A stretch of 64,000 bases of DNA from an uncultured Coriobacteriia bacterium (GCA_963768865.1 CAVYJL010000008.1:139580-203579); one strand, 5' to 3'. Shown: positions 1,901 to 60,607, counted from the stretch's first letter. Notes: a model not told the origin generated them from the letters alone. Program-made: numbers and translations.

Positions 1901-3560
1901 TTGACCGAATCGAACGACACGAACCGCCAGCAGCCGTGGGAGAACGCTGCCGGACCGGCGCCTTGGCCGCCGGCCTCTCGCGGCCTCGGAGCCGTGGCTC
2001 GGCGACCAGGACGCGACGGCGGTGATGGACCCCGTCTACCAGGCGCGCGAACCGGGCGCCGCGCTGTGGGACTCGCCGCCTCGGGACTTCTGGATGCCGG
2101 GCGACCCGGCTCCCGCGTGGGACGAGGCCGCCTGGTCGGTGGAGGCCCCGCCGGCTCCCACGTGGCCCGCACCCGCGCCGGCAGGCTATCCGGACCCGGG
2201 CGCGGGCATCATGCCGCTGGACCCCTACGCCGGGTACCCCGCGCCCTACGACCCGTATGCGGCCTACGGTGACCCCGGGTTCCCGCCGTTGCCGGCGCCT
2301 CGGCAGATGCCCATCGTGTCGCCGTACGACACGGACATGAAGCGCGGCATGCCGATGTGGCACATCCCGCTGCTCATCACCTTCAGCCTCATCAGCCTGG
2401 TCGCGTTCGCGATGGGGGGCTACACGTTCGGGCGCTGGGGTGGCGGCTCGGCCACGCCCATGGCCTACGGTGTCGCTCCCGTCGCGGCATCCACGGTGGC
2501 AACGGCCGCCGCCGCCGACACGTCCTCCACGGCCGAGACATCCTCGACCGCCGATACCACGAGCACGGCCGACACCGGCAGCAACGGCCCGGCGCCCTCG
2601 GTAGAGCAGGCGACCAAGGACATCGCCAAGGCGCCCATCGTGGCGCAGGCGTCGATGGTCGCGTACCGCTCGGGCGGCTACTTCTGGGTAGCCAACGAGC
2701 AGGGCGGCTCGCCCAAGAAGCTCATCCCTGCGGCGAGCACCAACTCGCTGTTCACGATATCGCCGGACGGCAAGTGGCTCGCGGTCGCAGACGGCGACAA
2801 CGGCGTCTTCCACGTCGTGAACACGGGCACCGGCGCCGACACCAAGGCCGCGGGCGCAGCCGACACGGTCAAGCCGTCCTGGGCGCCCAACAGCTCGTTC
2901 GTCGTCTACTGCGGCACCGACGCCGACAAGCGCACCGTCAAGCAGGTGAAGACCGACGGGAGCAAGCCGATCGTGCTCGCGTACGGGACCGCCCCGCGCG
3001 TGGCGCCGGACGGCAAGACCATCTACTTCATCCAGGACCCGGAGGGCAACGGCTACGGACCTATCGCGCTCGTGAACGCCGGCACGGCCAACGGGAAGAC
3101 CACGGTGGTCGTGAAGGGCAACGCGTACGAGGTCGCCGTCGTGCAGAAGGGCATCGTGTACGCCGCGGCGGACGCGAACGGCGACGCGACCAGGCAGTCG
3201 CTGTGGAAGGCGAACCTCGACGGCAGCTCCCCGGCGGTGCTGGTGGCGGTGCCCAAGATCGACGGCGCCAACTCGTTCGCGAGCATATTCGTGACACGCG
3301 ACGGGAAGATGATCGCCTACGACGTGTCCGGGGCTCAGGGCTTCGCCCGACTAGGTGTCATAGCGTTCGAAGGCGGCACCGCCAAGGACGTATCGGCCGG
3401 CAAGGACTCATACAACCTGGGGTGGCTCTCGGATGGGTCCGCCCTCACGTACACCACCGGCAACGTCTCCGCGGACCCCAACTCTGCCACGTCGGACCTG
3501 CACGCCGTGGGTGCCGACGGCTCCAGCGACCGGGTGCTCGTGTCCGGAGGCGGCCAATAG
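1901..3560 (+). CDS. Membrane-anchored TolB/PD40-like beta-propeller protein with a W/P-rich N-terminus; apparent +1 frameshift near 1971-1976
   Basis: TTG 1901 sits 4 nt after GGAGGAG. The N-terminal piece (ORF 1901..2272, MTESNDTNRQQPWENAAGPAPWPPA) continues the same W/P periodicity as ORF 2022..3560 (SEPWLGDQD..ALWDSPPRDFW..PAWDEAAWS..PTWPAP) once one base is removed in CCGCCGGCC. After that come one TM helix (IPLLITFSLISLVAFAMGGY), an S/T-rich linker and repeated SPDGKWLA / APDGKTIYF type PD40 blades. Confidence 0.6.
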
Positions 3561-3649
3561 CGGGGCGCAGTCCGCGGTCCGCGGACCCTCGGCTCGCCTC
3601 GGGGGCTGGGTGCTCCGCCGCCCCCGATCATCCGCGCACGCTCGCGATG

Positions 3650-3883
3650 CTAGCGAAGCGACCCGTAGACCGGGCGCATGTCGCTCACGCGAAGGCTTCG
3701 GCGCACGGCGGCTACCACCCGGCTCGGGGTGCACCCCTTGAGGTCGTCCTGGTAGATCCAGACGACGCGGTCCGTCAGGAGGGAGGTCACGATGATCGCG
3801 CGGCGCTCCCAAAGGACCCGCATACGGTAGTGCTCCGGAAGAAGGGACCGCAGCACCTCATACCATGTCGACAGCTCATCCAT
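3650..3883 (-). CDS. Hypothetical small protein (77 aa)
   Basis: ATG 3883 is preceded by AGGAGG at 6-nt spacing, and the amino-acid composition is non-repetitive (MDELSTWYEVLRSLLPEHYRMRVLWERRAIIV..). I recognise no family. Confidence 0.5.
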   Translation of the reverse strand: MDELSTWYEVLRSLLPEHYRMRVLWERRAIIVTSLLTDRVVWIYQDDLKGCTPSRVVAAVRRSLRVSDMRPVYGSLR

Positions 3884-4495
3884 CCTGACCTCCTAGGGTC
3901 CGGGTGCCGGCTGTGACGGTGTCGGGCGGGGGCCCGACGGGGTGCGAGGCACCGGTATGATGCACGCCCTCGCGCACAGTGTGCCTCCCCCGGAGGCCCC
4001 CGAACGACATTCAATGAAGAAGTAACCGCGGTGTCTCATGCCGTTAGCAATACGGCGTTCACGTTCGTTCGCACCGATGTCACGAACTTCTTGCGCGCAA
4101 CTTTCGCGCGTGCAACCTTCGCCCGGCCTCGGCACGGCACAGTGTCCATCGTCCACCCACCCGGACAGGGAGTCAGACCGCCACCAAGGCGGCGTGGGCG
4201 GTCATCGACTACGACGGCGACTTCATGGCGAGCCGAGGCGTATAGCCTCCGAGCGCGCCGGGTTCGCGAGCCCTCGCACCCGGGCTCGCAAGCCCCTTCG
4301 CCCGGCAGCGGGTCCTTCGCCTCAGGCGGAGGACCCGCTGCTCCTTTCCCGCCCGAGGTGCCGGCCGGGGGCTCCGGGCAGTCGGGCTCCACGCACTCAG
4401 CCCCGCGTGAGCCCTCGATCCTGATCGCGGGAGGTTGCTCATCGAAGGCCGTACAATGGAAGATGAGGCATCCGGTTTGCCTGAACAGTGCAAAC

Positions 4496-4573
4496 GCCCT
4501 CGTAGCTCAGAGGATAGAGCGGTGGTTTCCTAAACCATGTCTGTCGCAGGTTCGAATCCTGCCGGGGGCACCA
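4496..4573 (+). tRNA. tRNA-Arg (anticodon CCT), CCA encoded
   Basis: Cloverleaf folded by hand: acceptor GCCCTCG/CGGGGGC, D stem GCTC/GAGC, anticodon stem GTGGT/ACCAT with loop TTCCTAA (U33, CCT, A37), T arm GCAGG-TTCGAAT-CCTGC, discriminator A, CCA. The variable region is 7 nt, which is unusually long and may itself contain an indel. Confidence 0.85.
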
Positions 4574-4586
4574 ACTTGATGCGCGC

Positions 4587-4616
4587 GGGGCCGGCCTCGA
4601 GAGGCCGGCCCTTTCT
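4587..4616 (+). terminator. Intrinsic terminator after the tRNA
   Basis: GGGCCGGCC-TCGAGA-GGCCGGCCC hairpin followed by TTTCT. Confidence 0.6.
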
Positions 4617-4624
4617 CGACCAAG

Positions 4625-4666
4625 CCGTCGAAAAGGAAGGGGCCGGTCCTTTCGGACCGGCCCCCC
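4625..4666 (-). terminator. Intrinsic terminator after the cytochrome-CWB2 gene
   Basis: On the minus strand, a GGGGCCGGTCC-GAAA-GGACCGGCCCC hairpin is followed by TTCCTTTTC, ~55 nt after the reconstructed stop at 4720. Confidence 0.6.
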
Positions 4667-4719
4667 TTCGTCTACAGCATCGAGGAGTTCGCGCTGAACT
4701 CCTCTCTAGGTCCTGTGAC

Positions 4720-7700
4720 CTAGAGGTTGAAGATGTCGTAGATCGCCTCGAAGACGTTGCCGTCACAGCGCCCGATCCACCGTTGATGATCACCTCGGTG
4801 ATCGTGCTCTTGTGGTCGGTGAGGAACGTCGCGGCCGAGATGGACAGCGTCATCTTCTCCGTGAGGAGCATCACGCCGCCGTTCTTGCCGATCGCCGCCC
4901 AGGCGCTGAGCCCGTCGGGGAAGTCCTCACCCGTGACGATGCCGACGAAGCCTGCACTAGTGCCAGGCGCGTTGGTAAGAGCCCACGTAGCGAAGTCGGC
5001 CGAGCGGACGTACAGATCGGACGCGCCAACGATGCGCGTTGCCGTGACGCCGGTGAGGCCGTTCAGGCTCGTCACAACGCTGTTGCTCACGTTGCCCGTA
5101 CTACCGACCACGTACACGGTGTCGATGCCGTTACCCGTGATTGCGGCCGACGTGAAGGAGTTCAACGCCGTCGGCTGCGTCAGGATGACCGGCCACTTCT
5201 GCTTGTACGAGACCGGACCCACCGTCAGGGCGTCTTGGAAGGTGGTGCCGTCCACGACGAACGCCTTATCGGCGAACGCCCCGCCCATCATGGTGTGGAC
5301 CTCGTCGGCCACAGCCTGGGATGTACCGTAGCGGTTCGCTCCGGCGAGCCGGTGCGTGTCGCCGCCGGTGATGCCGGTACCTGCCTGGATCGCAGCAACG
5401 ACCGCGTTCGGGATGACCGGTGCCGCCGTCGATCCGGTGCCACCGACTACCCACAGGACGGGAGTGCCGGTCTTGATGCGGTTGATCTCATCAATGACCG
5501 CGTTGATCGAGGCCGGGTTCGTACCGCCCGTCGTGTACGCCGGAACCAGCAGGACCGGGCTGCCCGCGGCACCGGAAAGACCGGCGGCCGAGAGTGCGTC
5601 CGGGAAGTTCTGGCCCGTCGCGATGACGATGTTCTCGATCGTCCCGGTCGCGAACTGCGACTGGGACACCTTGATGGCCGTCTGGTAGCGGTTGATGCCG
5701 GCGATGCGCATCGGGACGATGCCCGCGCCACCGATGGTCACCTGGACCGGCGTGCTCGTGTAGATGAGCGCACCGGGATCGCCACGAACGACCCACGCCG
5801 CACGGAAGAACGTGGTGGCGCTGATCGTGCCACCGCTTCCGAGATAGGCGCCGGTGCCGTCAGCCGTGACCGTGCTCACGTTGGAGTACGGGCCACCGAC
5901 GACGGAGGCCTTCTGGATCACGATCGTCGCGCCCGCCGCGGGCACAGAGGTCGCACCGTTGGAGGCCATGCCGAACATGCTGACGGTGTCGCTCGGCGTG
6001 ACGACCATGGACGACGGAACGCCGGTCACCGAACCGCCGATGGCGTTGGCGTACTTGGTGGCCACAGCGAGACCGGCTGCGAGGTACGGCGGGTTGTGAA
6101 CGCCGTTCGAACCCTCAGCTGCGGAGAACGCCTGGTTCCAAGCGCCGATCTTGTAGGCGATCGATCTCGGGGTCGGTGCTCGTCGTCGTCTGAATGCTGG
6201 ACGACCAACCCTTGCGGGTACGGGCCGCGGTCAGCGCGGCGGAAGCCGCTGAGTTCTCAGACGTGAAGTCCGACTGCCAACCGTCGATCTTCGTCTGCAG
6301 GTTGGTCAGGCTCAGGCTCTGGTGGCATGTCTGCTGGCAGGAGTCCTGGCCGCCATTGGCGATGACGCCCCATGTCTGCGCATTACCCGGCAGCATCGGC
6401 AGGAAGCTGTGGGTAGGCCGACCGGCGCGCGTCTGCACCATATGGCACTGCTGGCACTCGACGCCCTCCATGAACTCCCCGGCGTCGGCGACGTCGACCA
6501 TGCCGGTACCGGCGACGGTCTCACGCGTCGGATGGGAAGCGATGTGGCTGCCGAGCGGGTAGCCCGTAGCGAACGCCGCGGCGCTCGGGGGCTGGGTCTC
6601 CAGCACCTGGAACTGCCAGTTGTGGCAGTCCGCGCAGCCGGCGCCTTCGCGCAGGCCCAGACCGCCGGTAACGGTGTTCTCGGTGGAGCTGTGGGCCGTA
6701 TGGCACACCTGGCACGTGACGCCGGCGATGGGCGTGGACGTGGGATCGGTGCCCGCGAAGTCCGTCTCCACATAGGAGGACTGGCTGACGATGTTCTTGC
6801 CGTTCACCGGGTCCAGGGTGGTCCCGATGTAGTTCATGCGACCGTCACCCGAGTGGCAGCGCATGCACTTGGCATTGCCGCGACCCTTGGCAGCGATCCA
6901 CGGGTTGATGTGGCCACGGCCGCCCGGAACCGGCGTGATGCCGACCGTACGGGTCGTGTCCCAAGGGCCGGTATTGCCGCCGGCCGTCTGGTCGACAGCG
7001 CTGACCCACTCGTTGAAGTAGCCGTGGTTCATGCCCTTGTTGGCACCGTTCGGATAGAACGCGTAGCCGGAGGCCGGCCACACCGCGTTCGTCGTGTCGA
7101 TGGTCTTGATATCGAAGAAGGTCAGAAGAGAGTTCTGACCAGGCACAAGACCGGTGCCCACGTTATTGGTGGTGAACCCGAGCGGGCTCGAGAAGTTCGA
7201 GCTGGCCGAGTCGTACCGCTTGACGTATGCGGTGTCGGAAGCCAGCGCGGAGCCGGTCGCGTGGCACTGGCCACAGACGCCGGCCTGCAAGATGAGCTTC
7301 TTCGTGATCGAGCTGCTGCCCGACGGCGCGCCGGTGCCGGCACCGCCGTTGACATAACCGACGAAGCTGACGCCTTCGCCCGCATGGCTGTTGCTCGTAG
7401 GCGTGTTGCCCACGTTGCCCGTGCCGTGGCAGGTCTCACACTGGATGGAGAGACCGGACTGCCACTCCGTCGGCGTCGCCGATGGGTCGATGGAGCCCGT
7501 GATCGGGAAGATCCTTGGCGCCCTGGCCGGGATAGTTCGGCTTGGTGACGCCCACGTTGTGGCAGGAGCCGCAACGCTGGAAGTACGGGACCAGCGAGAC
7601 CTTGGCCTCCAGCAACCATTCGCCGGTGACCGGGTCATAGCTCGTGCCGTCGATCAGCGGATACTCGTTGCCGAGCCCGTTGGTCGCGGCTGCGGCCATC

Positions 7701-10352: not shown

Positions 10353-11394
10353 TTACTTCTCGCGAGTCCAGGTGAGCGTGGTGTAGTTCACCGGCGTCGT
10401 GCCCAGGAGCTTGTTGTCCGTCATCCACTTGAGCACGTTGTCCACCTGCTGCTGGGTGGGCAGCTGGGCGGTCGGATACTGGTTGATCTCATAGCTGCTC
10501 GCGATGGGGGCGGGAAGACGGGCCTTGTCCACGAGCAGGGCACGGTACGCGTCCGGCTTGACGTCGATCGCGGCCACGGCCCGGTCCCAGATGCCGAGCA
10601 GCGTCTCGACGCTCTCCTTGCCGCCGGGCTTGGCAAGGTACGCGTCGGAGACCATGAGGATGGTCTGAGAGATGTTCAGCCGGCCCCTTGCTGTCGTCGG
10701 CCAGGACCTTGAGGCCGTCCTTGACGCCCAGCGAGAAGAAGGGCTCGGGGAGCACCGCGGCGGGCACCTTGCCTTGGCTGAGCAGCTGGTAGCGCACGGG
10801 GAGCTTCTTGACCTCTTCGCGCTTGACCGCGCGGGGGTCCACGCCGGCCTGAAGGATCAGGCGGTCCGCGGCGTATGCCGGCAGCGTGCCGGACGACTGC
10901 GCAAGCGCCCCGCCGGACTTGGCGAGGTCGTTGAGCGAGTTGATGCCGCTGTTCTTGGCGGCGAGTATGCCGAACCGCCCCTGCTCCGGCGTGGCGCCCA
11001 GCTCCAGCGTCACGATCTTGACCGGGAAGCCATGGCTCGTGAGCAGCGCCGCGGCGATGATGTCGGCGCTCGCCGCGTCGATGGAGCCGGCCTGCAGCGC
11101 GGCGTCGCGCTCGGCGGCCGAGGGGAACAGGGTGAGCGTCACGGAGAGCCCGGCCTTCTGGAACAAGCCGGCCTGCTCGGCGACGAACAGCGGCAGCGAA
11201 TCCTCGTTGGGCAGCACGCCTATCCTGATCGGGATGGGCTTGTTCACAGGCTCGCCGGTACGCGTGCCCGTCTCAGAGCCTGTCGTGCTCGTGGTGGAGG
11301 TCTGCGACGAGGCGCAGCCGCCTAGGGCGAGGAGGGCCAGCGACACGGCGAGCGCGACGGCTACCACCGGGACGAGTCTGCGTAGCTTCTTCAT
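10353..11394 (-). CDS. ABC substrate-binding lipoprotein (NMT1/THI5-like, NitT/TauT family); one frameshift near 10681-10689
   Basis: Lipoprotein signal LALLALGGCASS. ORFs 10489..11394 and 10353..10655 join as ..KVLADDSKG|LNISQTILMVSDAYLAKPGG.. after removing one base in GGGGCCGGC. Confidence 0.8.
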
Positions 11395-13368: not shown

Positions 13369-14269
13369 ATGACATCTCCGGTTCCCCTGCTCACTGACGA
13401 CCCGCGCGCCGCGGCGGTGCTGGCCGGCGCGCGGATCCTTTACACCGACCTGGACGGCACCCTTCTAGGCCGAGGCGGTTCGCTCCTCAGCGACCACGAC
13501 GGCACGCCCACGCTCGTCATGGCGGACGCCGTGGTGGACCTGAATCGGGCGCAGCTGCCCGTGGTCATCGTGTCGGGACGCAACTCGCTGCAGCTCGTGG
13601 AGATCACCCGCATGCTGGGCTGGACCGGCTTCATCGGCGAGGTGGGCGCGGTGTTCGTGCGCGACCGCGGCGCCGAGATCACGTACAACCTGGGGCAGTG
13701 GGCCGCGGACGCCGTGCCCGAAGGAACCACGCCCTACCAGGTGATCGCCGATTCCGGCGCCGCCGAGCGCCTCATGGCCGCCTTCCCGGGCCTCATCGAG
13801 TATCACGACCCTTTCCACCTGAACCGGCTGGCATCGCACGTCATGCGCGGGAACGTGGACATCGCGGCCGCGCAGCGGATCGTGGACGAAGACGGCGGCC
13901 ACCCGCCCATCGACATCGTGGACAACGGCATCATCCACCCGTGGCGCCACACCCTTGTGGGTGTGGATCGAGATCCACATCTATCACCTGCTGCCCCGCG
14001 GCGTGAACAAGGCGCAGGCGGTGGCGGCGGACATGGTGGCGCGCGGCATCTCGCGCGACGAGGCCATCGCCGCCGGCGACTCGATCGCGGACCTGCGCAT
14101 GGCCGAGGCCGTGGGGCTGATGACACTCGTCGCCAACGGCCTGGACTCCTCGGTGACGGCGGACGCCGCCGAGCGGCTGGACAACCTCGTCGTCACAGAG
14201 CAGCGCCAGGGCCACGGCTGGGCCGAGCTCGCGCAGGCGTGGCTCAGCGCTCGAGGCGAGCGCGCGTGA
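13369..14269 (+). CDS. HAD-superfamily (Cof/sugar-phosphatase-like) hydrolase; one frameshift near 13965-13975
   Basis: HAD motif I is YTDLDGTLL, motif II is VIVSGR, and the C-terminal GDSIADLRMAE is motif IV. ORF 13369.. and ORF 13955..14269 join at ..HTLVGV|(I)EIHIYHLLPRGVNK.. within GGATCGAGATCC. Confidence 0.75.
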
Positions 14270-21225: not shown

Positions 21226-22435
21226 CTACCTCTTGGCCGCCGCGGAGACCGCGTAGAGCTGGTCCATGGTCACGAACTGGTAGCCCTGCGCGCGCAGCCG
21301 CTGGATGATCACCGGCAACGCGGCCACCGTGTTGGTGCGGTCCCCTCCGCCGTCGTGCATGAGCACGACCCGGCCCGGGCGCGCCGCGTTCACGACACGA
21401 TCCGCGATGACGGCCGCGGGCGGGCGTCGCCAATCCATCGGGTCCACGTCCCATAGCACGAGGTGCACCTTGGCGTCCGCGGCCTGCGCATAGACGCTCC
21501 CGTTCACGGCGCCGTACGGGGGCCTGAACCAGATCGGCCAGGCGCCGGTGATCTTCTGCAGCTCGTCCTCGGCGGACCGGATTCTCCCACGAGACCGCGG
21601 CCGGAGGCGCTTTGGCCAGGTCGCGGTGGTCCCAGGTGTGCGTGCCGATGGCACTGCCCTGCTGCTTCACGTCCTTGACGACCTGCGGGTATCGCTTGGC
21701 CTGCTGGCCCAGCATGAAGAAGGTGGCCCTTACGTTGTTCTGCTTGAGGATGGCCAGGATGGCCTCGGTGCTCTTGGGCCACGGGCCGTCGTCGAACGTG
21801 AGCGCGATCAGCTTGCCCACCCCGCCTGGCCGGGTGCGCAGGAACACGGCCGGCGTGGCCTTGACCAGCGTCCGCGAGGACACGATCTCGCCCGAGACGC
21901 GGCCGCGGGTCTGGTCCGCGAGGCCCACGCTGCCGGGCGCGGTCATGAACACGAGCGGGCCGCTGCCCTGGAACTCCGAGCGGATGGGCAGTGCCACGCG
22001 CGTGGTCACCACGGATTCGACCGCGTCCGTCCCGTTCATGCTGATCACAGGCGTCCACGGCCATACACGAGTGGACGGGATCGCCGGCTTGCCGGCGACC
22101 GTGACGACCGCGCGTGTCCCGCCGTTCTCCCGCAAGATCCTGTGCCGCTTGACCGACAGCAGCCGGCCGTTGTGAACGCTGATGTAGTGCTGGTCGGTGA
22201 GCTTGGCCACGGTGACGCCGATGGGCGCGCTCTGCGCCTTGCCGTCGATGGTCACCGGGACCTTCAAGAAGAGGACGGCGGCCACACCCAGGATCACGAT
22301 GGCGACCAGGGCGCCGCCCAGGGCCGCGGCCCAGGTGAGCGCGCGGCTGTGGCGCGGTCCGTCGGATCCGCTCGCGTGTCCGCTCGTGGCCGACGGTCCC
22401 CCGTGGGGAGGTATCTGTTCCTGGTGCGAAGGCAT
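21226..22435 (-). CDS. Membrane-anchored polysaccharide deacetylase (NodB/PgdA family); one frameshift near 21580-21585
   Basis: One TM helix is followed by a beta-rich spacer and then the NodB motifs LTFDDGP and HTWDHRDL. The C-terminal ORF 21226..21654 contributes FRPPYG and VVLMHDGG. The junction reads ..AAVSWE|IRSAEDELQKITG.. after removing one base in GAGAATCC. Confidence 0.8.
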
Positions 22436-22440: not shown

Positions 22441-22936
22441 TCAGGCCTGCGATATCCGTGCCACGCGCCCGCCGGTCACGGCCATGAGCTGGTCGATCGT
22501 CAGGTGCACCATCGAGTTGGGCGTACCGCCGGCCGTGTAGACTTCGCCGAATCTCGAGAAGGAATCGTCCACCAGCACCGTGAGGTGCGCGGGGAGGTCG
22601 AACGGGCTCACGCCGCCTATCGCATAGCCGGTCGCCTCTCGCACCGTGTCCGCGTCTGCGAACCTCACCTCGCCCAAGCCCGCCTCGGCGGCGATAGCGG
22701 CGGGGTCGCCGCGGCGGTCGCCGGCAACTAGCGCGAGCACCGGAGCGCCGGCCTCGATCCACGAACACGAGCGACTTCACGATCTGGCCGAGCTCACAGC
22801 CCACCGCGTCGGCAGCGAGCTGAGCGGTCTTGGTGGATTCCTCGAACGTGACCACTCGGTCCGCGAGCCCGTGCTCGGAGAGGTAAGCGGTCACGCGCTC
22901 CAGCGAGTTCCGCTTGCGCGGTCCGGTATCAGCCAT
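22441..22936 (-). CDS. YbaK/EbsC-type aminoacyl-tRNA deacylase; one frameshift near 22755-22762
   Basis: N-terminal piece is ..LSEHGLADRVVTFEESTKTAQLAADAVGCELGQIVKSLVFV. The C-terminal ORF 22441..22740 reads ..LALVAGDRRGD..ATGYAIGGVSPF. The junction lies within GTGGATCGAG. Confidence 0.75.
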
Positions 22937-38279: not shown

Positions 38280-38283
38280 GAGC

Positions 38284-48929: not shown

Positions 48930-49747
48930 CTAGCCTCGCCGCGCGGTGACGATCAGGCTCTCGTCGGTCATGGCGTCGAAGGCTTTGCCCGAGTGGTCCC
49001 CGTAGGTGGCGACATCCACGAAGCCGGCGCCGTCAGCCCATCCTCGAGCGCGCGCGAGGTGATCACCGTGTGCGGCCCCCTGTGGGCGGTAGCGGCCCAG
49101 CCCAGTTCCTCGTCGCCGGCCAGCGCGAGCGCCGCGTCCTTGGTGGCCGTCATGAACTCTATCCAGATCCGCACAGGGGCCTCGGGGGGCTCGAACTCGA
49201 GGAGCCGAAGGTACACCGCGGTCCCGCCCGGGACGTCTCGGACCTTCACCGGGAGGAAGCGCGGCCGCAGCTCCAAGAGGCGGTCGTGGTTGAGCAGGTG
49301 GAGCACCAGCGCCCCGCCGGGCCGCAGCACAGCGGCGAAGTCGGCGAGCGCGGCCGCAAGGCCGTCCGCGCCGTCCACGTGCGGCAACGCGTTTCCGGTA
49401 CAGGTCACGGCGTCCACTCGGCCCACTCCGAGCTGGGCCAGTCCGCCGAACCCGCCCTCGAGGAACCGCACGTCCACATCGCGCGAGGCGGCGTTTGCCC
49501 GCGCCGCAGCGAGCATGTCCTCGGCGGGATCCACGCCCGTGACCTCGAATCCTCGCTGCGAGAACGCGATGGCGTGGCGTCCGGTCCCGCATCCCACGTC
49601 CACGATCGTGCGCACCCCGGCGTTCTCGAACAGGCGCTCGAAGAAAGGCAGCTCCCGCGCGAGCCTGACGTCCCAATCCACCATCAGGTCGTAGTCCGAC
49701 CGGCGGTGCTGATGGATGTGGCCGGAGCCGTCCTGTTCAGAGCTCAT
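48930..49747 (-). CDS. Class I SAM-dependent methyltransferase; one frameshift near 49030-49040
   Basis: SAM motif I IVDVGCGTGRHA, post-I GVDPAEDML, and LRPGGALVL. The C-terminus is recovered from ORF 48930..49676 (..DGAGFVDVATYGDHSGKAFDAMTDESLIVTARRG*). Its ATG overlaps the upstream stop (ATGA). Confidence 0.75.
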
Positions 49748-51384: not shown

Positions 51385-52724
51385 TCACAGGCCCGATCCT
51401 TCTCCTGCCGAGGAGTCGGACTTGCGCGGCACCTGGTCCGGCACGATACGCGTGACGCGCAGGCGCGCGATACGGCGCCTGCGCACGTTGGCGACCCGGA
51501 TCCGCCACTCGGCATGCTCGAGGGTCTCACCCGGCTCCGGTATGTGCCCCAACTCGGCAAGGACCCATCCCGCGACCGTCTCGTACTCTTCGCTCTCCGG
51601 GATCTCGAGGCCGAGCTTCTCGTTGGCCTCCTCCACGGGGAGGCGCCCGTCCACGAGCCAGTCGCCGGCGCGCAGCGGTTGCACATAGCGCCGGACGCGG
51701 TCGGACTCGTCGGCGACCTCGCCCACGACCTCCTCGATGATGTCCTCGAGCGTGACCAGGCCTTCCGTACCGCCGTGCTCGTCCACGACGATCGCCATCT
51801 GGTCGTGCGACGTGCGCATCTCGCCCAGGAGGTCGATCACGCGCTTGGTCTCCGGCACGAACACGGCGTTGCGAACGTAGTCGCCGATGAGGTCGCACTG
51901 CCGCTCGTCCATGACGCACGGAAGCGTGTCTTTGAGCAGGAGCACGCCCACGATGCTGTCGCGATCCTCGTGGTAGACCGGCAACCGCGAGAACCCGGTG
52001 CCCTGGAAGACCTCGAGCGCTCGCGGCAAGGGCGTGGTGTCCTCGAGCATGACCATGTCCACCCGGGGCACCATGACCTCGCGCGCGGTCGTGTCGCCGA
52101 GCTCGAAGACCTCGGCGATCATGCGCTTCTCTTCGTCCAGCAGGGTGCCCTGCTCGGTCACGAGGAGCTTGAGCTCCTCCTCGGTGACCCCCGGCTTGCC
52201 GCCGGCGTGCAGGCCTATGACGCGCCCCATGACGTCCGCCGAGCGGGCGAGCAGCCAAGTGAGCGGTGCGGCGGCGGCCGCGATCAACGCGATCGGGCGC
52301 GCGACGACCACGGAGACGGACTCGGCACGCTGGAGACCCAAGCGCTTGGGCGTGAGCTCGCCGAACACGAGAGAGATGTAGCTCACGAGCGTCGTGGTCA
52401 CCACCACGGCGAGGCCGCCGGTGATGCTCTTGGGGACGTCCCACGCCCGCGAGCCAGACCGCGAGAACCTCCGCGAGGCTGACGGCGGCGACTGCGCTCG
52501 CGAGGAAGCCCACGAGCGTCATCCCCACCTGCACGGCGGCGAGCAGTCGCGAGGGGTCGGCCAGAAGGTCCAGCGCCACGCGCGCGCCCGCCTCCCCCTC
52601 CTCGGCCCGCCGACGCAGCAACGGGCGGCTCGCCGAGATCGAGCGCGATCTCAGCCGCAGCGAAGAAGCCGCCGATCAGGACGAGGACGAATATGCCGAT
52701 GATCTCGAGCAGGTAGGCACTCAT
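51385..52724 (-). CDS. CorC/HlyC (DUF21-CBS-CorC_HlyC) family protein; two frameshifts near 52640 and 52430
   Basis: The pieces 52398..52724 (MSAYLLEIIGIFVLVLIGGFFAAAEIAL), 51527..52621 (ISASRPLLRRRAEEGEAGARVALDLLADPSRLLAAVQVGMTLVGF..) and 51385..52407 (..LVFGELTPKRLG.., CBS pair, C-terminal transporter-associated domain) join in order. Confidence 0.8.
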
Positions 52725-52846: not shown

Positions 52847-54875
52847 GTGCCAGCCGAGGATCACGACAGGAAGCGCGCAGCGGAGGCCGCTGTACGCGGC
52901 ATAGCCAGCGCTTTCAAGACACTGCGCCTCTATCCCGCCGCGAGTCCGATCCCGCGCCAGGCGGCGGACACCGCCGCGGACGAGGTCATGCGCCTGCTGG
53001 ACGGACGCGACTTCGCCGCGCTGCACGTGGAGCGCGATGGGCTGTCGTTCGACGGCGTCGCGATCCCCGGCATCGTTCCCGGCGCCGCCGACGTCGCGGA
53101 CCTGCTGCGAAGCCATGGTGTGGCGGACGTCGCGTTCACCGCCCCCTGCTCGGCCGACGACGTGCTCGCCTTCGTGACCGCACTGGCTCGCGAGCCCTCC
53201 GACCTGCGCGCGAGTGGCGGGTTGGGCCCGGTGCTGGACGGCGCGGGCGTGGGCTCCATCCAGGTGTCCGACATCGCGATCCTGCTCACCGCCCACAGCG
53301 CGGGCTCCGACGCGCCCGCCGCCGACGCCGCGGGCGGCCCCGTCGACGCCGAGCCCTCGGCCCTGGATGCCGAGGCCTCGGCGATGCTCCGCTCCGTGGC
53401 CAACGACCCCAACCGCCTGGCCGCCTGGATCTCCGGCGTCGCCCCCGAGCGCGACTCGCTGGACCAGGGGCTGTTGCAGCTGTCTTCTGCGATCGGCGGC
53501 GCAGACGCCTTCGGCGCGTCGCTGGCCGGCGCGTTCCCCAGGCTCACCGCGTTCGACCGCGATGCCCTTCTCGCGCTCGCCGTGGACCCGGGCGCGTCCG
53601 ACGGCGTCACCCGGGCGTTCGTGTCCATGCTCCCCGACGACGAGCTCGCCCAGGCGCTGACCAGCGGCCGCTCGGGAGAGAACATGCTGGCTCTGTCCAA
53701 CGCGCTCGCGTGCCTGCCTTTGGGCGGCCGGCTGGGACGAGTGATGGAGAGCGTCAAGGGGCTGCTGCCCTCGCTCGGGCACGGGGACAAGGAGATGCGC
53801 TTCCTCGAACACATGGTGGAAGTGCGCACCGCGGGCGGCCCGGACGAGCCCATCACCGACGCGGAACCCGACCTGGGCGAGATCGCCCTCGCGGTCAAGT
53901 CGCTGTCCGACGACTTCTCGGCCCAACACGCCGAGGTCGCGAGCGCACGTGCCGGAGGCTCCGAGCGAGCCATAGCCACGATGCTCACGCTGCTCGAACA
54001 GCAGCAAGACTTCGCGCTGTATTGCGAGACCCTGGACCGGATCACGGCCATGGTTCCCGGGCTCATCGGCGCCGGCGAGCTGGGGCTCGCGGCGCGGCTG
54101 CTCGACGAGCTCAGCACGCGCGTGACGGCCTCGCAGGGAGCCTGGCCGGGCGTGCGCGAACGTGCCGAGGGTGCCGTTCATCGGGCGCTGCGGCCCGACA
54201 CCATACGGGCGCTGCTGGACGCGGTGCTCGCCCAGGGTGACGACTCGCTGCCCGCCGCCCGCGAGATCGATGCGGTACGGCGACGAGGCGGCCGTGCACT
54301 CCCTCATGGAGATCGCGCTCGCCTCGGGCGACGGCCGCAACTTCGCCGCCGCCGAGCAACTCGTGGGCAGGCGCATGCTCGACGAGCTGTGCCGCGCCGC
54401 CGGGACCGTGCCCGCCAGCGGCGTCGCCGCGGTCGCGCGCAGGCTGGCGGCGGCCAGCTCCGAGCCCCGCTGCGCGGCGGCGCTGGACACGCTCGCGGCG
54501 CGGCCCGACCCGGCCTCCCGCCGCGAGCTCGCGGCGTCGGTGGCCCGCGTGGACACCCAGTACGCCGTGACCCTCTCCGAACAGCTGCTCTCCGACCGCG
54601 ACGCCGAGGTCTCCGTCACGGCGGCGCGCGGCCTGGGACAGAATCCGAGCGACGGAGCGTCCAGGGCCCTCGCGCAGCGCCTGTCGCAGCTGGACGTGGA
54701 CGGACGGGACTTCCCGCTCGCCCGCGAGATCGTCCTGTCCCTGGCCCGCCATCACGATCCGATAGCCATCGGCGCTTTGGACCGGCTGGCGGCTCGCCGA
54801 TCGCTCATCAAGCGCGCGAACTTCACCGCGCTGCAGGAGATCGTCCGTCAGGCCCAACACATGCAACGGCGGTGA
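52847..54875 (+). CDS. HEAT-repeat protein with LYPAAS N-terminal domain (cassette 2, ~675 aa); one frameshift near 54267
   Basis: GTG 52847 follows GGAGGGGG. The N-terminus reads ..FKTLRLYPAASPIPRQAAD... ORF 52796..54907 joins ORF 54162..54875 as ..LPAAREI|MRYGDEAAVHSLMEIALASGDG... The C-terminal repeats (DRDAEVSVTAARGLG, DFPLAREIVLSLARHHDP) are HEAT-like. Confidence 0.7.
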
Positions 54876-56223: not shown

Positions 56224-56256
56224 CCCGCCGGCGCGGGCGAGTCCGGCCCGCCTCGC

Positions 56257-56619
56257 TCAGCTCTCGATGCGGAAGGTGCGGTCGATCTTCTCGAGCACAG
56301 CGGCGACGAGCGCCAGTCGCATGCGCTTGTCCGTGCAAGCATCGGCGAAGCGATCAACCGACCTCACGATCTCCGCCGAGGGCTTGTAGCGGATGAGGCC
56401 GCCCGCATTGGACAGGATGTCCGAGCGGCAGAGCTGCTCGAGGTCGTCGTCGAGGTCGTCGGGACGCCTGGCCCACTCGCGCCGCGAGTGCCCTCTTGTC
56501 CAGCACGGCCGACGGGTGCTTCTGGAAGAAGAGGAGATCTCCCAAGCGAGCAGCGTGCGGACGTGCGCGTCAACGAACCGCGCGAGCCCCGGATCCACGA
56601 GCCCTCCCGAACCTTCCAC
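56257..56619 (-). CDS. Small hypothetical wHTH-like protein (~120 aa); two compensating frameshifts (~56535 and ~56465)
   Basis: ORF 56257..56619 loses sense between the residues WEI and RRPDD. In that stretch the -1 frame (ORF 56354..56545) reads a natural LLFFQKHPSAVLDKRALAARVGQ. Confidence 0.5.
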   Translation of the reverse strand: MEGSGGLVDPGLARFVDAHVRTLLAWEISSSSRSTRRPCWTRGHSRREWARRPDDLDDDLEQLCRSDILSNAGGLIRYKPSAEIVRSVDRFADACTDKRMRLALVAAVLEKIDRTFRIES

Positions 56620-57392: not shown

Positions 57393-57430
57393 GCTGAGGC
57401 CCCGAAAGGCGGCTCCGGCCGGTCGGACAC

Positions 57431-57462: not shown

Positions 57463-57470
57463 GCTCGTCT

Positions 57471-58207
57471 TCACGCTTTCGCCGCCACGCGCCTGGTGCC
57501 CGACGCGCCGAACGACTCGAAGCCCCGGTCCTCGGCAGGTATCTGGAGGGCGTCGAGGACGGCCCGCATCGGCGTGATCGATCGCCGGTGGCCCGGCGAC
57601 GATGAAGTACCAGCCGTCGTGCGGATCGATGTGGTGCTCCACGAGCCGCGGAGTGATGAAGCCGCGCTCGCCCTCCCAGTCCGGCCGAGGCCGGGCGATG
57701 ACCTCGACCAGGCGGAAGAAGTCCGCTCGGTCCGCGAAGGCTCTGAGCTCGTCGTCGAACGGAACGCAGTCCTGCGTGTTGTTGCCGTAGAAGAGCACGA
57801 GCTCGGCGCTGCCGTCCTCGCGCAGCACGCGGTCGCGGATGATGGCGCGTGCGGGCGCGACGCCTACGCCTCCCATGAGGAACGCGACACGGGTCACGTC
57901 CTGCGGGACACCGAGCCTGCCGCCGGGCCCGGAGACCGTCACCGCGTCGCCGGGCCGGAGGGCCATGAGGGCGTCTTTGAAGGCCGAGCCGGTGAGACGG
58001 GTCGCCAGTATCCATCGTGGGCTCGGATGGAGCGGCTGCGTCGGAGAACGTCTTGGTCTGGGGGCCCTCGCGGGTGTCGAGGGTGAGCCTGAACCACTGG
58101 CCGGGCCGCGCGTGGTAGCCGTCCGGCCGCGCGAAACGGAAGGTGTCAGTCGTGGAGCAGCACGGCTCCCCCGACATGAACGTCGTGGCAAAGGCCGGTA
58201 GAGCCAC
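57471..58207 (-). CDS. Ferredoxin-NADP reductase-like FAD/NAD(P)-binding oxidoreductase; two frameshifts (~58025, ~57567)
   Basis: GTG 58207 lies 6 nt after AAGGAGG. The FAD barrel reads FRFARPDGYHARPGQWFRLTL..KTFS. The NAD domain (ORF 57376..58191) reads VSGPGGRL..VAFLMGGVGVAPARAI..LFYGN..YFIVAGPPA. The C-terminus (ITPMRAVLDALQIPAEDRGFESFG..*) is recovered after removing one base in GCGATCGATCAC. Confidence 0.7.
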
Positions 58208-58300: not shown

Positions 58301-58380
58301 GGGCCGGGCGGCGCGGGTTCGCCGGGGTGGGCGGCGCGGCTGGCCCGGGGCCGGGCGGGCGGTTCGCCGGGGCGGGCCGG
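58301..58380 (+). repeat. Two imperfect ~33-bp G-rich direct repeats with G-quadruplex-type spacing
   Basis: GGGCCGGGCGGCGCGGGTTCGCCGGGGTGGGCGG (58301-58334) and GGGGCCGGGCGGGCGGTTCGCCGGGGCGGGCCGG (58348-58380) lie in the divergent intergenic region. GGG-N2-GGG-N6-GGG-N6-GGGG fits the canonical G3+N1-7 pattern. Confidence 0.6.
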
Positions 58381-58388
58381 CCCTCGGC

Positions 58389-59871
58389 ATGTGGTATGAA
58401 CGGCTCATGGCATCAGACACCTTCACCGTCCACGCGCCGGAGTTCACCGAAGGGCTCGACTGGATCGGCACCGACAGGCCCCTGCGCCTGGCCGAACTGC
58501 GCGGCAAAGCTGGTGCTGCTCGACTTCTGGACGTACGGCTGAATCAACTGCATGCACGTGCTCCCGCGTGTCGGCGGAGCTTGAAGAACGGTTCCAGGAC
58601 GCGCTCGTCGTCATCGGCGTGCACGCCGGCAAGTTCGTCGAGGAGCGACGTACGGCGAACATCCGCCAGGCGTGCGCGCGTCTCGGTGTGGTACACCCGG
58701 TGGTGAACGACCGCCAGTACCGCATCTGGCGTGCGTACGCGGTGCAGGCGTGGCCCACCGTCGCTCTGGTCACGCCGGAGGGCCGCCTCGCGGAGGTGAG
58801 CGCGGGCGAGTTCGACGTCGAGGTCATGTCCTCCACCGTCGTCGCAGGTGCTCGCGCGCGCGGAGACGGACGGCACGCTCGGCGCGGCCCGTTCGACTCG
58901 GCGTGGACGCTCGCTACCCCGCCCGAGCCCGACGGCGTCCTGAGGTTCCCGACGCCGCGTGCTGCCGCCGGGGACAAGCTGTACGTGTCCGACTCAGGCC
59001 ACTTCCGAGTGCTCGAGCTGCAGGTCGAGGGGGAGACGGCGAGGTCTCGCGAACGCTCGGCAGCGGCGAGCCGGGCTTCGCGAACGGAGGAGCCGGACCA
59101 GGCGCGCTTCGTCGAGCCGCAGGGTCTCGCGGTGCGCGACTCCACGCTCTACGTCGCCGACAGGCGCAACCACACGTGCGCGCGGTCGACCTCGAGACCG
59201 GCGAGGTCACGACCGTCGCCGGCACCGGCGAGCTCGGGGACCGCGGCGTGCGCTCGGGCCCGGCGCTCGCCACGCCCCTTCGTTCTCCATGGGGCCTGCT
59301 CGCGCGCGACGGCCGGGTGCTCGTCACCATGGCGGGGACGCACCAGCTGTTCACGCTGGACCCGGCCCGCGGCAAGCTCGAGCTGTACGCCGGCACCGGC
59401 GCCGAGGCTATCGTCGACGGCATGCGGCTTCGCGCGGCACTCGCTCAGCCCACCGGCCTGGCCGGCGACCCGATGAACGTCTACTTCACCGACTGCGAGT
59501 CCTCCTCGGCGCGCCGCCTGGGCGACGGCGCCCTGAGCGCGGTGCACACCATCGTGGGCACCGGCCTGTTCGATCACGGCGACCGCGACGGGACGGGCGA
59601 CGAAGTGCGCCTCCAGCATGCCGAGGACCTGGGCGTGCACCGCCGCTCCCTGGTCGTGGCGGACACCTACAATGGCAAGCTCAAGCGCGTGACCGTGGGC
59701 GACCGGACCAGCGAGGCGTGGCCGGGGGACGCGGGCTCCGGGGACGCGCTCGTCCACCCCGCGGGCATCTGGGCCAACGACGACCGCGTGCTCGTCGCGG
59801 ACACGGGGCAGCATCGGATCGTCGTCGCCGACCCCGCCACCGGCGAGCTCACCGCTCTCGAGATCTCGTAG
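58389..59871 (+). pseudogene. Thioredoxin-like + NHL-repeat beta-propeller protein (NHLRC2-like). As sequenced it is broken by 5-7 frameshifts and an in-frame TGA at the CxxC position
   Basis: Pieces in three frames read as follows: MASDTFTVHAPEFTEGLDWIGTDRPLRLAELRGK | LVLLDFWTYG-TGA-INCMHVLP | VSAELEERFQDALVVIGVHAGKF..WPTVALV.. | NHL blades (GDKLYVSDSGHFRVLEL, PQGLAVRDSTLYVADRRNH, VRAVDLETGEVTTVAGTG, PWGLLARDGRVLVTMAG, PTGLAGDPMNVYFTD, VADTYNGKLKRV, PAGIWANDDRVLVADTGQHRIVV). Confidence 0.7.
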
Positions 59872-59892
59872 ACCCGTCCCCTCGGCCCAGGC

Positions 59893-60607
59893 TCAGTACC
59901 AGATCTCCATCGCGAGGCCTTTGCGGTCGCGCTCCGGCTCCGCGCGGCGGCAGCCTGCGCGCCACTCCCTCGAAGATGCGCGCCGCCGTCCAACAGCACG
60001 CGTGAGCATCGAGCACGTCGTCGAACGACACTGCCGAGGCCGGCCACCCGCCCCGCACGTTGAGCGGGTCGGTGAATCCGGCGTGGACGAGGGCCTCGGC
60101 ACGGTCCTGGATGCCGTTGACCGTGCGCTTGGAGGCGCGCATGGGCCCGCCGGCCATCTCGGTGAAGCTGAGCTCGGGGAAGCACTCGCGCACCGTTTGC
60201 CGGACCTGCCCGCTCATGAGCGCATCGACCTCGGCGATCTTTGGGGCGATGCCCCACGACTGGCGCGACAGGCCTATGCCCGCCGGCGAACTCGCGCGGT
60301 TGGCGGCGTTCGCCTCGTGCCAGCTCGCCGCTCGCAGCGCCGCTCGCACGGGCGGCGAGAACACCGACGTCCCGCGCTTGGGCCCGACGAGCCTGCGCGC
60401 CTCGCGGTCGCACGCGCGCCCGCCGCGCGCGGCGGCGTCGAGCAAGCCGATGGGGATGTCGACCGCGATGACGCGCGGGTTCTCGCGCATGCCCAAGACG
60501 TCGGCGAACGTGGGTTTGAGCAGGTGAAGCGTGCGCCCGCTGGACAGGTCGCGCGCGACGACGAACCAGCCTCCTCGGCACGCGTCGACGCCCGCGACCC
60601 AGGTCAT
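59893..60607 (-). CDS. DUF429 domain protein; one frameshift near 59940
   Basis: MTWVAGVDACRGGWFVV.. and VIAVDIPIGL are DUF429 hallmarks. The C-terminus ..ARRLPP|AEPERDRKGLAMEIWY* is recovered from ORF 59893..60102. Confidence 0.7.

What the first reader, a model, noticed from the sequence alone, without database searches (positions are those of the whole stretch)
1901..60607. Frameshifts are pervasive and non-random: about half sit on GATC, several on CCGG/CCWGG
About 25 places need a 1-nt correction for otherwise excellent protein continuity (roughly one per 2.5 kb). Twelve of them fall directly on a GATC context:
- cytochrome: ~7513 AAGGATCTTC and 6159-6166 GATCGATC
- HAD hydrolase: 13965 GGATCGAGATCC
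- deacetylase: ~21582 GAGAATCC (GAGATCC after correction)
- ybaK: ~22757 GTGGATCGAG
- macB-like: ~35612 GGGATCAC
- HEAT1: ~45403 CCCGATCAAG and ~44781 GGCGATCCTCG
- corC: ~52640 CTCGATCTCG
- HEAT2: ~54267 GAGATCGATG
- wHTH: ~56535 GAGATCTCC
- FNR-like: ~57567 GCGATCGATCAC
Five more lie in or next to CCGG/GCCGGC (1971, 10685, 49035, 59090, and beside 21582), and one lies on CCAGG (56465). By my rough estimate GATC plus or minus a few bases covers only a few percent of the window, so the enrichment is large. The simplest reading is motif-specific systematic indel error. Base modification is known to cause such errors in signal-based sequencing. That would imply the organism methylates GATC (Dam-like) and probably a CCGG-type site. 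The genes would then be intact in vivo. The alternative, real motif-targeted mutation, would be more surprising.
Basis: partly seen in the sequence, partly recalled or inferred. Interest (0 to 1): 0.6.

Follow-up and report, generated by a model that had tools for sequence, protein, structure and literature searches.

The report
GATC-linked frameshifts are assembly errors
The window really holds about 26 one-base frameshifts, 11 of them at the edge of a GATC site, but contigs from the same strain lack them, so they are consensus errors in the record and not broken genes.

Summary
I confirmed and localised 26 single-nucleotide frameshifts: 17 extra bases and 9 missing bases, about one per 2.5 kb.

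- **Basis:** five come from direct DNA comparison with a same-strain contig. Twenty-one come from frameshift-aware alignment to intact orthologues.
- **GATC link:** eleven of the 26 lie within 1 nt of a GATC, against 1.2 expected (p about 1e-8). GATC is the top 4-mer of the 136 tested.
- **Position of the indel:** every GATC-linked indel sits at the 3' edge of a GATC on one strand. Three proven cases are GATCA written as GATC[G]A. One proven case is GGATC written as GATC.
- **Other motifs:** CCGG (0 observed, 2.2 expected), CCWGG (1 against 1.06) and homopolymers (4 against 4.2) are not enriched.
- **Same-strain evidence:** contig L011, from run ERR12035932, is 99.9% identical to the window. 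It lacks all five indels in its 5.5 kb of overlap and carries the affected genes as intact ORFs.
- **Second component:** ten indels with no GATC nearby cluster at 56.4-60.0 kb, seven of them in one gene.

The frameshifts are therefore artefacts and the genes are almost certainly intact in vivo. Base modification at GATC is a plausible cause but I could not test it. A Dam-type modification is not established, and a CCGG-type methylation is not supported. This is a quality problem in the record, not biology.

The parts
4754..4756 (-). Missing base near the C-terminus of the multihaem cytochrome/CWB2 gene. Context GAAGACGTTGCC. The nearest GATC is 10 nt away.
   Evidence: Frameshift-aware alignment to P0124 and P0122; edit scan.
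6161..6162 (-). Extra base inside GATCGATC in the cytochrome gene. The inferred true sequence on the gene strand is GAGATCATCGCC. GATC-linked.
   Evidence: Alignment to three orthologues, L008/P0123, P0122 and P0124; edit scan.
7504..7509 (-). Extra base in GTGATC[G]GGAAGATCC in the cytochrome gene. GATC-linked.
10677..10678 (-). Extra base in the NMT1-type solute-binding protein gene, GTT[CA]GCCGGCC. No GATC; lies 1 nt from GCCGGC.
   Evidence: Orthologues from L008 and L015. The Pfam NMT1 match spans the junction.
13970..13970 (+). Extra G directly after GATC in the HAD hydrolase gene, GGATC[G]AGATCC. GATC-linked.
   Evidence: Orthologues from L008 and L015.
21592..21593 (-). Extra base in the polysaccharide deacetylase gene, CCCACGAGACCGCGG. 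Not at GATC.
   Evidence: Four of five GTDB orthologues place it here; edit scan. Orthologue identity is only about 42%, so the placement is less certain than at other sites.
22758..22760 (-). Extra base in or next to GATC in the ybaK gene, CTCGATCCACG. GATC-linked.
   Evidence: Five orthologues at about 70% identity.
35610..35612 (+). Extra base in CTGGGATCAC in the MacB/FtsX-type permease gene. GATC-linked.
   Evidence: Six homologues. Same-strain contig L002 ends at 35617, at this site.
44779..44782 (-). Missing base next to GATC in HEAT1 (gene strand GGCGATCC^TCG). It compensates the insertion at 45398. GATC-linked.
   Evidence: L001 orthologue.
45398..45400 (-). Extra base next to GATC in HEAT1 (gene strand CCCGATCAAGCGC). 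Positions up to 45408 score nearly as well. GATC-linked.
   Evidence: L001 orthologue.
49029..49029 (-). Missing base near the C-terminus of a SAM methyltransferase gene, GCCGGCGCCGTC. No GATC.
   Evidence: L001 orthologue.
52438..52439 (-). Extra base in corC/CNNM within GGGGACGTCCC. No GATC.
   Evidence: L001 orthologue. Same-strain contig L011 begins at 52440, at this site.
52641..52641 (-). Extra G after GATC in corC. The window reads GAGATC[G]AGC and the same-strain contig reads GAGATCAGC. GATC-linked.
   Evidence: Direct DNA comparison with L011. The orthologue scan agrees.
54269..54269 (+). Extra G after GATC in HEAT2. The window reads GAGATC[G]ATG and L011 reads GAGATCATG. GATC-linked.
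   Evidence: L011 carries the gene as a 675-aa ORF.
56470..56470 (-). Extra G plus a C/G mismatch in the small wHTH-like gene. The window reads CCTG[G]CCCAC and L011 reads CCTGCCGAC. No GATC. The CCTGG here is created by the error.
56536..56537 (-). Missing G directly 5' of GATC in the wHTH-like gene. The window reads GAGGAGATCT and L011 reads GAGGAGGATCT. GATC-linked.
   Evidence: L011 carries the gene as a 113-aa ORF.
57580..57580 (-). Extra G after GATC in the FNR-like reductase gene. The window reads GTGATC[G]ATC and L011 reads GTGATCATC. GATC-linked.
   Evidence: The orthologue scan gives the same base.
58009..58009 (-). Extra base in the FNR-like gene, CCAGTATCCATCG. No GATC.
   Evidence: Orthologues from L016 and L017.
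58505..59175 (+). Seven indels in the thioredoxin-NHL gene, none near GATC. Four are extra bases (58505-09, 58572-74, 58840-48, 58088-90 read as 59088-90) and three are missing bases (58882, 59031, 59175).
   Evidence: L017 orthologue; edit scan. Only three GATC sites lie between 58000 and 59700.
59943..59943 (-). Extra base near the C-terminus of the DUF429 gene, CTCCGCGCGGCGG. No GATC.
   Evidence: Orthologues from L016 and L017.

Best explanation
The frameshifts are consensus errors in the deposited assembly, not mutations in the organism. They have two components.

1. **A motif-bound systematic error.** A single G or C is added, or a G/C is lost, immediately 3' of a GATC on one strand. Typical forms are GATCA written as GATCGA and GGATC written as GATC. 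This affected 11 of the 396 GATC sites (about 3%), and the affected sites are spread across most of the window.
2. **A locally poor consensus.** Ten unrelated indels fall in 3.6 kb at 56.4-60.0 kb, and a few more are scattered elsewhere.

The most likely cause of the first component is signal-level sequencing of native DNA in which GATC carries a base modification. Read errors would then be strand-specific, and the assembler or polisher sometimes resolves them the wrong way.

**Shown:** the indels exist, they are GATC-linked, and same-strain contigs lack them.
**Inferred:** the assembly is from long reads or nanopore, modification is the cause, and which base is modified.
For: **The frameshifts are real in the record.**
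- All 26 restore alignment to intact orthologues at 42-90% identity.
- Pfam domains run across the junctions.

**Same-strain contigs lack them.**
- L011 (ERR12035932) is 99.89% identical over window 52440-57923. It differs by exactly five 1-nt gaps and one mismatch. Each gap is at a predicted frameshift, and L011 has intact ORFs.
- L002 (8678 nt, 5 mismatches and no gaps) and L014 (1204 nt, identical to the window) cover stretches where I found no frameshift and show no indel.

**The GATC link is strong and specific.**
- Eleven of 26 within 1 nt of GATC against 1.23 expected, p = 1e-8, rank 1 of 136 4-mers.
- Homopolymers are not enriched (4 against 4.2).

**The error has one geometry.** Three proven cases read GATC[G]A and one proven case reads GGATC>GATC. 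All 11 fit an indel at the 3' edge of GATC on either strand, with no relation to the gene strand.

**The genes show no other decay.** Codon bias continues in the new frame. The two HEAT1 indels compensate each other 618 nt apart.

**The read set of ERR12035932 is ambiguous at short motifs.** Five of the six contig ends fall on GATCA (two), GANTC (two) or GACGTC (one). Two of the six ends sit at or within 4 nt of a frameshift site.

**Related Nanopore-only MAGs behave the same way.** The MFD loci L067, L068 and L073 carry many frameshifts that are mostly insertions. Seventeen loci from short-read MAGs show none with support from four or more query proteins. The MFD pipeline was Flye plus one round of Medaka (PMC12313526).

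**The phenomenon is published.** Modification-induced, strand-specific nanopore errors are documented, including reduced accuracy at the G and C of a 5mC GATC motif (PMC11610603).
Against: - The sequencing platform of the window and of ERR12035932 could not be established.
- Published modification-induced errors are overwhelmingly substitutions (C>T, G>A, R/Y ambiguities), not indels.
- The window shows no excess of GATT or AATC codons. ATT is used twice after G against four times after C.
- Only 11 of the 396 GATC sites (about 3%) are affected.
- No DNA methyltransferase was seen in the window.
- If ERR12035932 is the same read set that built the assembly, it is not a technologically independent check, even though its k-mer consensus disagrees with the deposited consensus.
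- Fifteen of the 26 indels have no GATC and need a second cause.
Confidence: 0.7

Rival explanations
1. A GATC-specific technical artefact that has nothing to do with base modification. One version is a k-mer-specific bias of the basecaller or polisher at GATCA and GGATC. Another is contamination of the polishing step by reads carrying GATC-derived junctions or adapters. Sau3AI or DpnII Hi-C junctions read GATCGATC, which aligns to GATCATC as a one-G insertion. TruSeq adapters begin AGATCGG.
For: - The added base is G after GATC in the three proven cases. In two sites the product is exactly GATCGATC (6159-66 and 57576-83).
- Modification-linked errors in the literature are substitutions, not indels.
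Against: - The Hi-C and adapter models do not predict the deletions (GGATC>GATC at 56536 and 44780), the C insertions (22759, 35611) or GATC[G]GG (7507).
- The adapter model needs an A before GATC, which four of seven sites lack.
- Good short reads used for polishing would also have removed the other 15 indels.
- A sequence-only k-mer bias should also appear at GATC in related Nanopore MAGs. It does not: the well-supported frameshifts in L067, L068 and L073 are almost all more than 3 nt from a GATC.
Confidence: 0.2
2. The frameshifts are real. Either the genome is decaying into pseudogenes, or the population carries real GATC-targeted indel variants, for example from error-prone repair after nicking at GATC.
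For: - The indels are in the deposited sequence.
- Same-strain contigs break at or within 4 nt of two frameshift sites (35617 and 52440). That could mean two alleles coexist in the sample.
Against: - All five indels overlapped by a same-strain contig are absent from it. That comparison shows 5 indels against 1 substitution in 5.5 kb, which is not how natural divergence in coding DNA looks.
- There are no premature stops other than those caused by the shifts.
- Codon bias is intact after each shift.
- A compensating +1/-1 pair occurs in one gene.
- Genes such as ybaK, corC and an ABC-transporter binding protein are hit, while orthologues are intact in every relative examined.
Confidence: 0.04
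3. Ordinary random long-read noise, from low coverage or mixed strains. Under this reading the GATC association arises from chance and from freedom in placing each frameshift.
For: - It fits the cluster of ten indels of varied type at 56.4-60.0 kb, where the Logan contig also breaks.
- GATC is abundant, at one per 162 nt.
Against: - Positions were fixed by orthologue scoring or direct DNA comparison, not chosen by eye.
- The null used the same ambiguity sets placed at random in coding sequence and still gives p = 1e-8. No other 4-mer comes close except those overlapping GATCG.
- Homopolymers, the usual site of random long-read indels, are not enriched.
Confidence: 0.05
4. Programmed ribosomal frameshifting or transcriptional slippage, with the genes expressed across the shifts.
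For: None beyond the presence of the shifts.
Against: - Both +1 and -1 shifts occur in 15 unrelated genes, with no slippery heptamer or homopolymer.
- The same-strain DNA encodes the genes in one frame.
Confidence: 0.01

Closest known systems
Modification-induced systematic errors in Oxford Nanopore reads and assemblies (Liu et al. 2024, PMC11610603; Lohde et al. 2024, PMC11610573; Chiou et al. 2023, PMC10687267)
   Same: - The errors are bound to a short motif and recur at many copies of it.
- They behave in a strand-specific way and are not removed by read-consensus polishing.
- They are absent from another data set of the same strain.
- GATC is among the motifs reported to lose accuracy when modified.
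   Different: - The published signature is base substitution (C>T, G>A, R/Y ambiguity). Here it is a 1-nt insertion or deletion flanking the motif, with no excess of substitutions inside it.
- Neither the platform nor the modification could be verified here.
Homopolymer indel errors of long-read assemblies
   Same: Single-base indels that split genes, at roughly one per few kb, in an otherwise well-conserved genome.
   Different: No enrichment in runs of 3 or more bases (4 observed, 4.2 expected) or 4 or more bases (1 against 1.0). Insertions outnumber deletions 17 to 9.
Genuine pseudogene accumulation in reductive genome evolution (for example Mycobacterium leprae; from general knowledge)
   Same: Many frameshifted genes in one region.
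   Different: - The shifts are not reproduced in same-strain contigs.
- The genes show no other decay.
- One gene carries a compensating pair of shifts.
- The shifts have a motif-bound geometry.

Membership tests
Motif-bound systematic sequencing/consensus error | The variant is absent from another assembly or read set of the same strain | tested here: met
   L011 lacks all 5 indels in window 52440-57923 and has intact ORFs. L002 and L014 show no indels where none were predicted.
Motif-bound systematic sequencing/consensus error | Errors are enriched at one sequence motif beyond chance | tested here: met
   Eleven of 26 within 1 nt of GATC against 1.23 expected, p = 1e-8, best of 136 4-mers.
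Motif-bound systematic sequencing/consensus error | The error has a constant position and type relative to the motif | tested here: met
   All 11 lie at the 3' edge of a GATC on one strand. GATC[G]A was proven three times and GGATC>GATC once.
Base-modification-induced nanopore error | The data come from signal-based sequencing of native DNA | not testable with these tools
   - The platform of the record and of ERR12035932 was not found.
- Circumstantial support: a 429-kb contig, and insertion-rich frameshifts like those of Nanopore-only MFD MAGs.
Base-modification-induced nanopore error | The motif is modified in this organism (methylome or cognate methyltransferase) | not testable with these tools
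   No signal data. No DNA methyltransferase domain among the Pfam hits in the window.
Base-modification-induced nanopore error | Typical error type: strand-specific substitutions (C>T, G>A) at the modified base | tested here: not met
   - The errors are indels.
- Codon-context test: the rare Ile codon ATT occurs twice after G and four times after C, so there is no excess of GATT.
- Only one G/A difference at a GATC (44163) between the window and L002.
Homopolymer indel error | Indels lie in runs of identical bases | tested here: not met
   Four of 26 in runs of 3 or more against 4.2 expected. One in runs of 4 or more against 1.0.
Genuine pseudogenes | Lesions are reproducible in the same strain and come with other decay (stops, loss of codon bias) | tested here: not met
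   CCGG 0 against 2.2. GCCGGC 2 against 0.56 (p = 0.11). CCWGG 1 against 1.06, and that one site is created by the error itself.

The most novel reading that the evidence does not exclude
GATC in this uncultured Coriobacteriia-related lineage may carry a modification that current basecalling and polishing models handle badly. It would not be the familiar Dam G6mATC. Candidates are GAT(4m/5m)C or a bulkier adduct. Its signature would be a one-base indel at the 3' edge of the motif instead of the usual substitution. The breaks of same-strain contigs at GANTC and GACGTC would then point to further modified motifs. A much less likely variant is real, low-frequency GATC-targeted indel heterogeneity in the population.
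Probability: 0.25. Interest if true: 0.4.

Novelty: not a real feature. Interest (0 to 1): 0.15.

Why it matters
- **Annotation.** At least 15 genes in 64 kb are split or mistranslated in the deposited record. One example is P0126, a deposited 511-aa ORF that covers only the C-terminal part of the cytochrome gene and, because of the missing base at 4754-56, runs on into the tRNA-Arg gene.
- **Downstream analyses.** Completeness estimates, pseudogene counts, protein clustering and any "novel small ORF" calls from this genome will be distorted.
- **A repair rule.** The GATC-flanking pattern gives a simple, testable rule for repairing this genome and checking related ones. It also hints that the organism modifies GATC.
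- **Biological interest.** There is none in the frameshifts themselves.

Tried and rejected
- **Exact look-up of window proteins.** This was meant to find the source contig. The record's own contig is not in the position index.
- **Concatenated junction segments as one homology query.** Only cytochrome hits came back. That approach wasted one search.
- **Metagenome scan with the HD2 protein.** It gave only a 2-kb relative.
- **Search for the window's genome among GTDB representatives.** It is absent. The best Ddl identity is 62%.
- **Substitution test at GATC.** I looked for an excess of rare ATT or NNA codons in GATT/AATC context and found none.
- **GANTC, ACGT and GACGT as second indel motifs.**
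  - GANTC: 0 hits.
  - ACGT: 3 against 0.9 (p about 0.06).
  - GACGT: 2 against 0.6.
  - All are too weak to claim.
- **Platform of ERR12035932.** I found nothing in the literature or supplements.
- **SECIS-like fold after the in-frame TGA.** It is not more stable than shuffled sequence.
- **Hi-C junction or adapter reads as the source of GATC[G].** I considered this and rated it unlikely because it does not predict the deletions or the C insertions.
- **tblastn screen for frameshifts in relatives.** It is noisy. Calls supported by only 1-3 query proteins recur at gene boundaries in all loci, so I ignored them.

Full report
**Setting.** The window is 69.5% G+C and holds 396 GATC and 774 CCGG sites.
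- Its UPF0182 protein matches a protein recorded from NCBI and ENA on a 429,434-bp contig at 100% identity.
- The nearest named relatives are Coriobacteriia and Anaerosomatales MAGs at about 55% identity.
- Neither the source record nor its sequencing platform could be retrieved.

**Are the frameshifts there?**
- A codon-usage Viterbi segmentation showed many same-strand frame switches.
- Pfam searches on frame-corrected conceptual proteins separated gene boundaries from in-gene shifts. The NMT1, Polysacc_deac_1, tRNA_edit, CNNM and cytochrome c552 matches all run across junctions.
- I then collected intact orthologues from syntenic contigs:

| Locus | Source | Orthologues supplied |
|---|---|---|
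| L001 / L012 | JGI | corC, methyltransferase, HEAT1, HEAT2 |
| L008 | ENA | cytochrome, binding protein, HAD |
| L015 | NCBI GCA_936421435.1 | HAD, binding protein |
| L016 / L017 | JGI | FNR-like, Trx-NHL, DUF429 |
| 64 GTDB loci | genome collection | ybaK, deacetylase |
| Cluster representatives | protein library | MacB-type permease |

- A frameshift-aware protein-to-DNA alignment found each shift. I then scored every possible single-base edit against the orthologues to place each one, usually to within 1-6 nt.
- The total is 26 frameshifts, 17 extra bases and 9 missing bases.
- Where an exact answer later became available, the orthologue method was right to within one base (52640/41 and 57580).

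**Same-strain contigs.** Cluster look-ups led to three Logan contigs from run ERR12035932.

| Contig | Length | Window interval | Difference from window |
|---|---|---|---|
| L002 | 8678 nt | 35617-44294 | 5 mismatches, no gap |
| L014 | 1204 nt | 22838-24041 | identical |
| L011 | 5481 nt | 52440-57923 | five 1-nt gaps, one mismatch |

- Every one of the five L011 gaps is at a frameshift I had already predicted. No other indel exists in that interval.
- L011 carries HEAT2 as a 675-aa ORF and the small wHTH-like gene as a 113-aa ORF.
- The five differences are:

| Window position | Window reads | L011 reads |
|---|---|---|
| 52641 | GAGATC[G]AGC | GAGATCAGC |
| 54269 | GAGATC[G]ATG | GAGATCATG |
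| 57580 | GTGATC[G]ATC | GTGATCATC |
| 56536 | GAGGA-GATCT | GAGGAGGATCT |
| 56470 | CCTG[G]CCCAC | CCTGCCGAC |

- Five indels against one substitution, all gene-breaking, in sequence that is otherwise 99.9% identical, is the signature of consensus error and not of divergence.

**Is the GATC association real?**
- I used the objectively derived position sets. The null placed the same sets at random in coding sequence.
- Eleven of 26 sites lie within 1 nt of a GATC against 1.23 expected (p = 1e-8). GATC ranks first of all 136 strand-symmetric 4-mers. The runners-up, ATCG and TCGA, are by-products of the GATCG that the error creates.
CCGG gives 0 against 2.2, GCCGGC 2 against 0.56 (p = 0.11) and CCWGG 1 against 1.06. 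That single CCTGG is produced by the erroneous G.
- Homopolymers are not enriched (4 against 4.2), so these are not ordinary homopolymer errors.
Orthologues place the deacetylase site at 21592-93 and not in GAGAATCC. Those orthologues are only about 42% identical, so this is the least secure placement.
- The 1971 site could not be tested and is not needed, because a start codon lies just downstream.

**Anatomy of the GATC-linked error.**
- All eleven can be written as an indel at the 3' edge of a GATC on one of the two strands.
- Eight or nine are an added G or C: GATC[G]A, GATC[G]GG or GATC[C]A.
- Two are the loss of the flanking base: GATCC>GATC, which is GGATC>GATC on the other strand.
- Either DNA strand can carry the error, regardless of the gene's orientation.
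- Only about 3% of the window's GATC sites are affected.
- In HEAT1 an insertion (45398) and a deletion (44780) compensate each other. The outer frame stays open for 727 codons while the middle 618 nt are read out of frame.

**The other fifteen indels.**
- Twelve of the 26 frameshifts fall in the last 8 kb. Ten of the non-GATC sites lie between 56.4 and 60.0 kb, seven of them in the Trx-NHL gene, where GATC is nearly absent.
- L011 also ends inside this stretch, at 57923. This looks like a locally poor consensus from low coverage or mixed strains.
- The five scattered non-GATC sites sit at GACGT(C/T) (two), beside GCCGGC (two) and at CGAGACC (one). The numbers are too small to call a second motif.

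**What the contig ends add.**
- The base just beyond each of the six Logan contig ends lies at GATCA (35616, 24042), GANTC (22837, 44295), GACGTC (52439, which is a frameshift site) or CCGGGCCCGG (57924).
- Five of six fall on short R-M-type palindromes. The binomial p is 4e-6, but the motif set was chosen after looking at the data.
- A k-mer graph breaks where reads disagree. This suggests the reads of ERR12035932 are ambiguous at specific short motifs, as expected for signal-based reads of modified DNA. That is an inference.

**Relatives.**
- I judged sequencing technology from the record titles and from PMC12313526.
- Among the 64 GTDB loci, three from the Nanopore-only Microflora Danica MAGs (L067, L068, L073) carry roughly 10-17 well-supported frameshifts each. 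Nearly all are insertions and almost none is at GATC.
- Seventeen loci from short-read MAGs show none with support from four or more query proteins.
- Those MFD MAGs were made with Flye and one round of Medaka 1.8.0.
- So frameshifts that are mostly insertions are typical of this kind of assembly, while the GATC link is particular to this genome. That fits an organism-specific cause such as its own modification system.

**Comparison with what is known.**
- Modification-induced nanopore errors are well documented. They are motif-bound and strand-specific (PMC11610603). They are strain- or lineage-specific (PMC11610573, PMC10687267). They are not removed by read-based polishing (PMC10687267, PMC11610603).
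- They are reported as substitutions. The window shows no excess of substitutions in GATC context.
- The present case therefore works like that family but fails one of its usual features. Two defining features, platform and modification, could not be tested.
- I rate "assembly error" at about 0.93 and "caused by base modification at GATC" at about 0.6-0.7. "Dam-type 6mA" is unsupported.

**Verdict.** The frameshifts are not a biological feature. Interest is low, apart from the practical warning about this record and the hint of a GATC modification.

Noticed in passing
window 58540-58542 (in the gene spanning about 58375-59871, + strand): There is an in-frame TGA at the first Cys position of the thioredoxin-type CxxC motif (WTYG*INC). 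The same TGA is present in the relative L017, where the gene was called as two ORFs of 68 and 441 aa. This probably encodes a selenocysteine (UxxC) protein. A downstream hairpin exists but is not more stable than shuffled sequence.
   Followed up: partly
window 16884-17070 (+): An M-box (magnesium) riboswitch scores 124.6 bits. It lies upstream of a PRC/MgtE_N/CBS membrane protein gene and an Nramp transporter gene. Part of it is 98% identical in the relative L015.
   Followed up: yes
window 4496-4573 (+): tRNA-Arg(CCT). The deposited annotation's 511-aa ORF (P0126, window 4530-6065, minus strand) runs over it, because the missing base at 4754-56 extends the cytochrome reading frame.
   Followed up: partly
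window 4728-8158 (-): A protein of about 1130 aa carries many CxxCH haem motifs followed by CWB2 cell-wall-binding repeats. It is conserved next to the same ABC transporter in relatives (L008). It is a candidate surface-anchored multihaem cytochrome in a Gram-positive lineage.
   Followed up: no
window 43246-46814 (-) and 52796-56223 (+): There are two paralogous gene pairs, each a roughly 700-aa HEAT-repeat protein followed by a roughly 450-aa HD-domain protein. One pair lies next to UPF0182. Both pairs are conserved in relatives. Function unknown.
   Followed up: no
window 22837, 44295 (GANTC); 52439 (GACGTC); 57924 (CCGGGCCCGG): Same-strain Logan contigs end at these short palindromic motifs as well as at GATCA. 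This may point to further modified motifs in this organism.
   Followed up: partly
window 44163; 43136-43141; 41806: These are the substitution differences between the window and same-strain contig L002. One is at the G of a GATC (the window reads GATC, L002 reads AATC). Three are clustered in GGCCGGCGCCGG. It is undecided which version is correct.
   Followed up: partly
L067, L068, L073 (loci from MFD long-read MAGs): Each carries about 10-17 well-supported frameshifts in 14-21 kb, mostly insertions. Contexts recur, such as GCTC|G in L073 and GAG|CGAG in L068, and differ from GATC. Several cluster-representative proteins (P0259, P0261, P0274) also end in out-of-frame Arg/Pro-rich tails.
   Followed up: partly
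window 272-1831 (+): The PstB-like ABC ATPase ORF has an N-terminal extension of about 200 aa rich in Pro and Ala, ahead of the ABC domain. I did not check whether this is real or another reading-frame problem.
   Followed up: no
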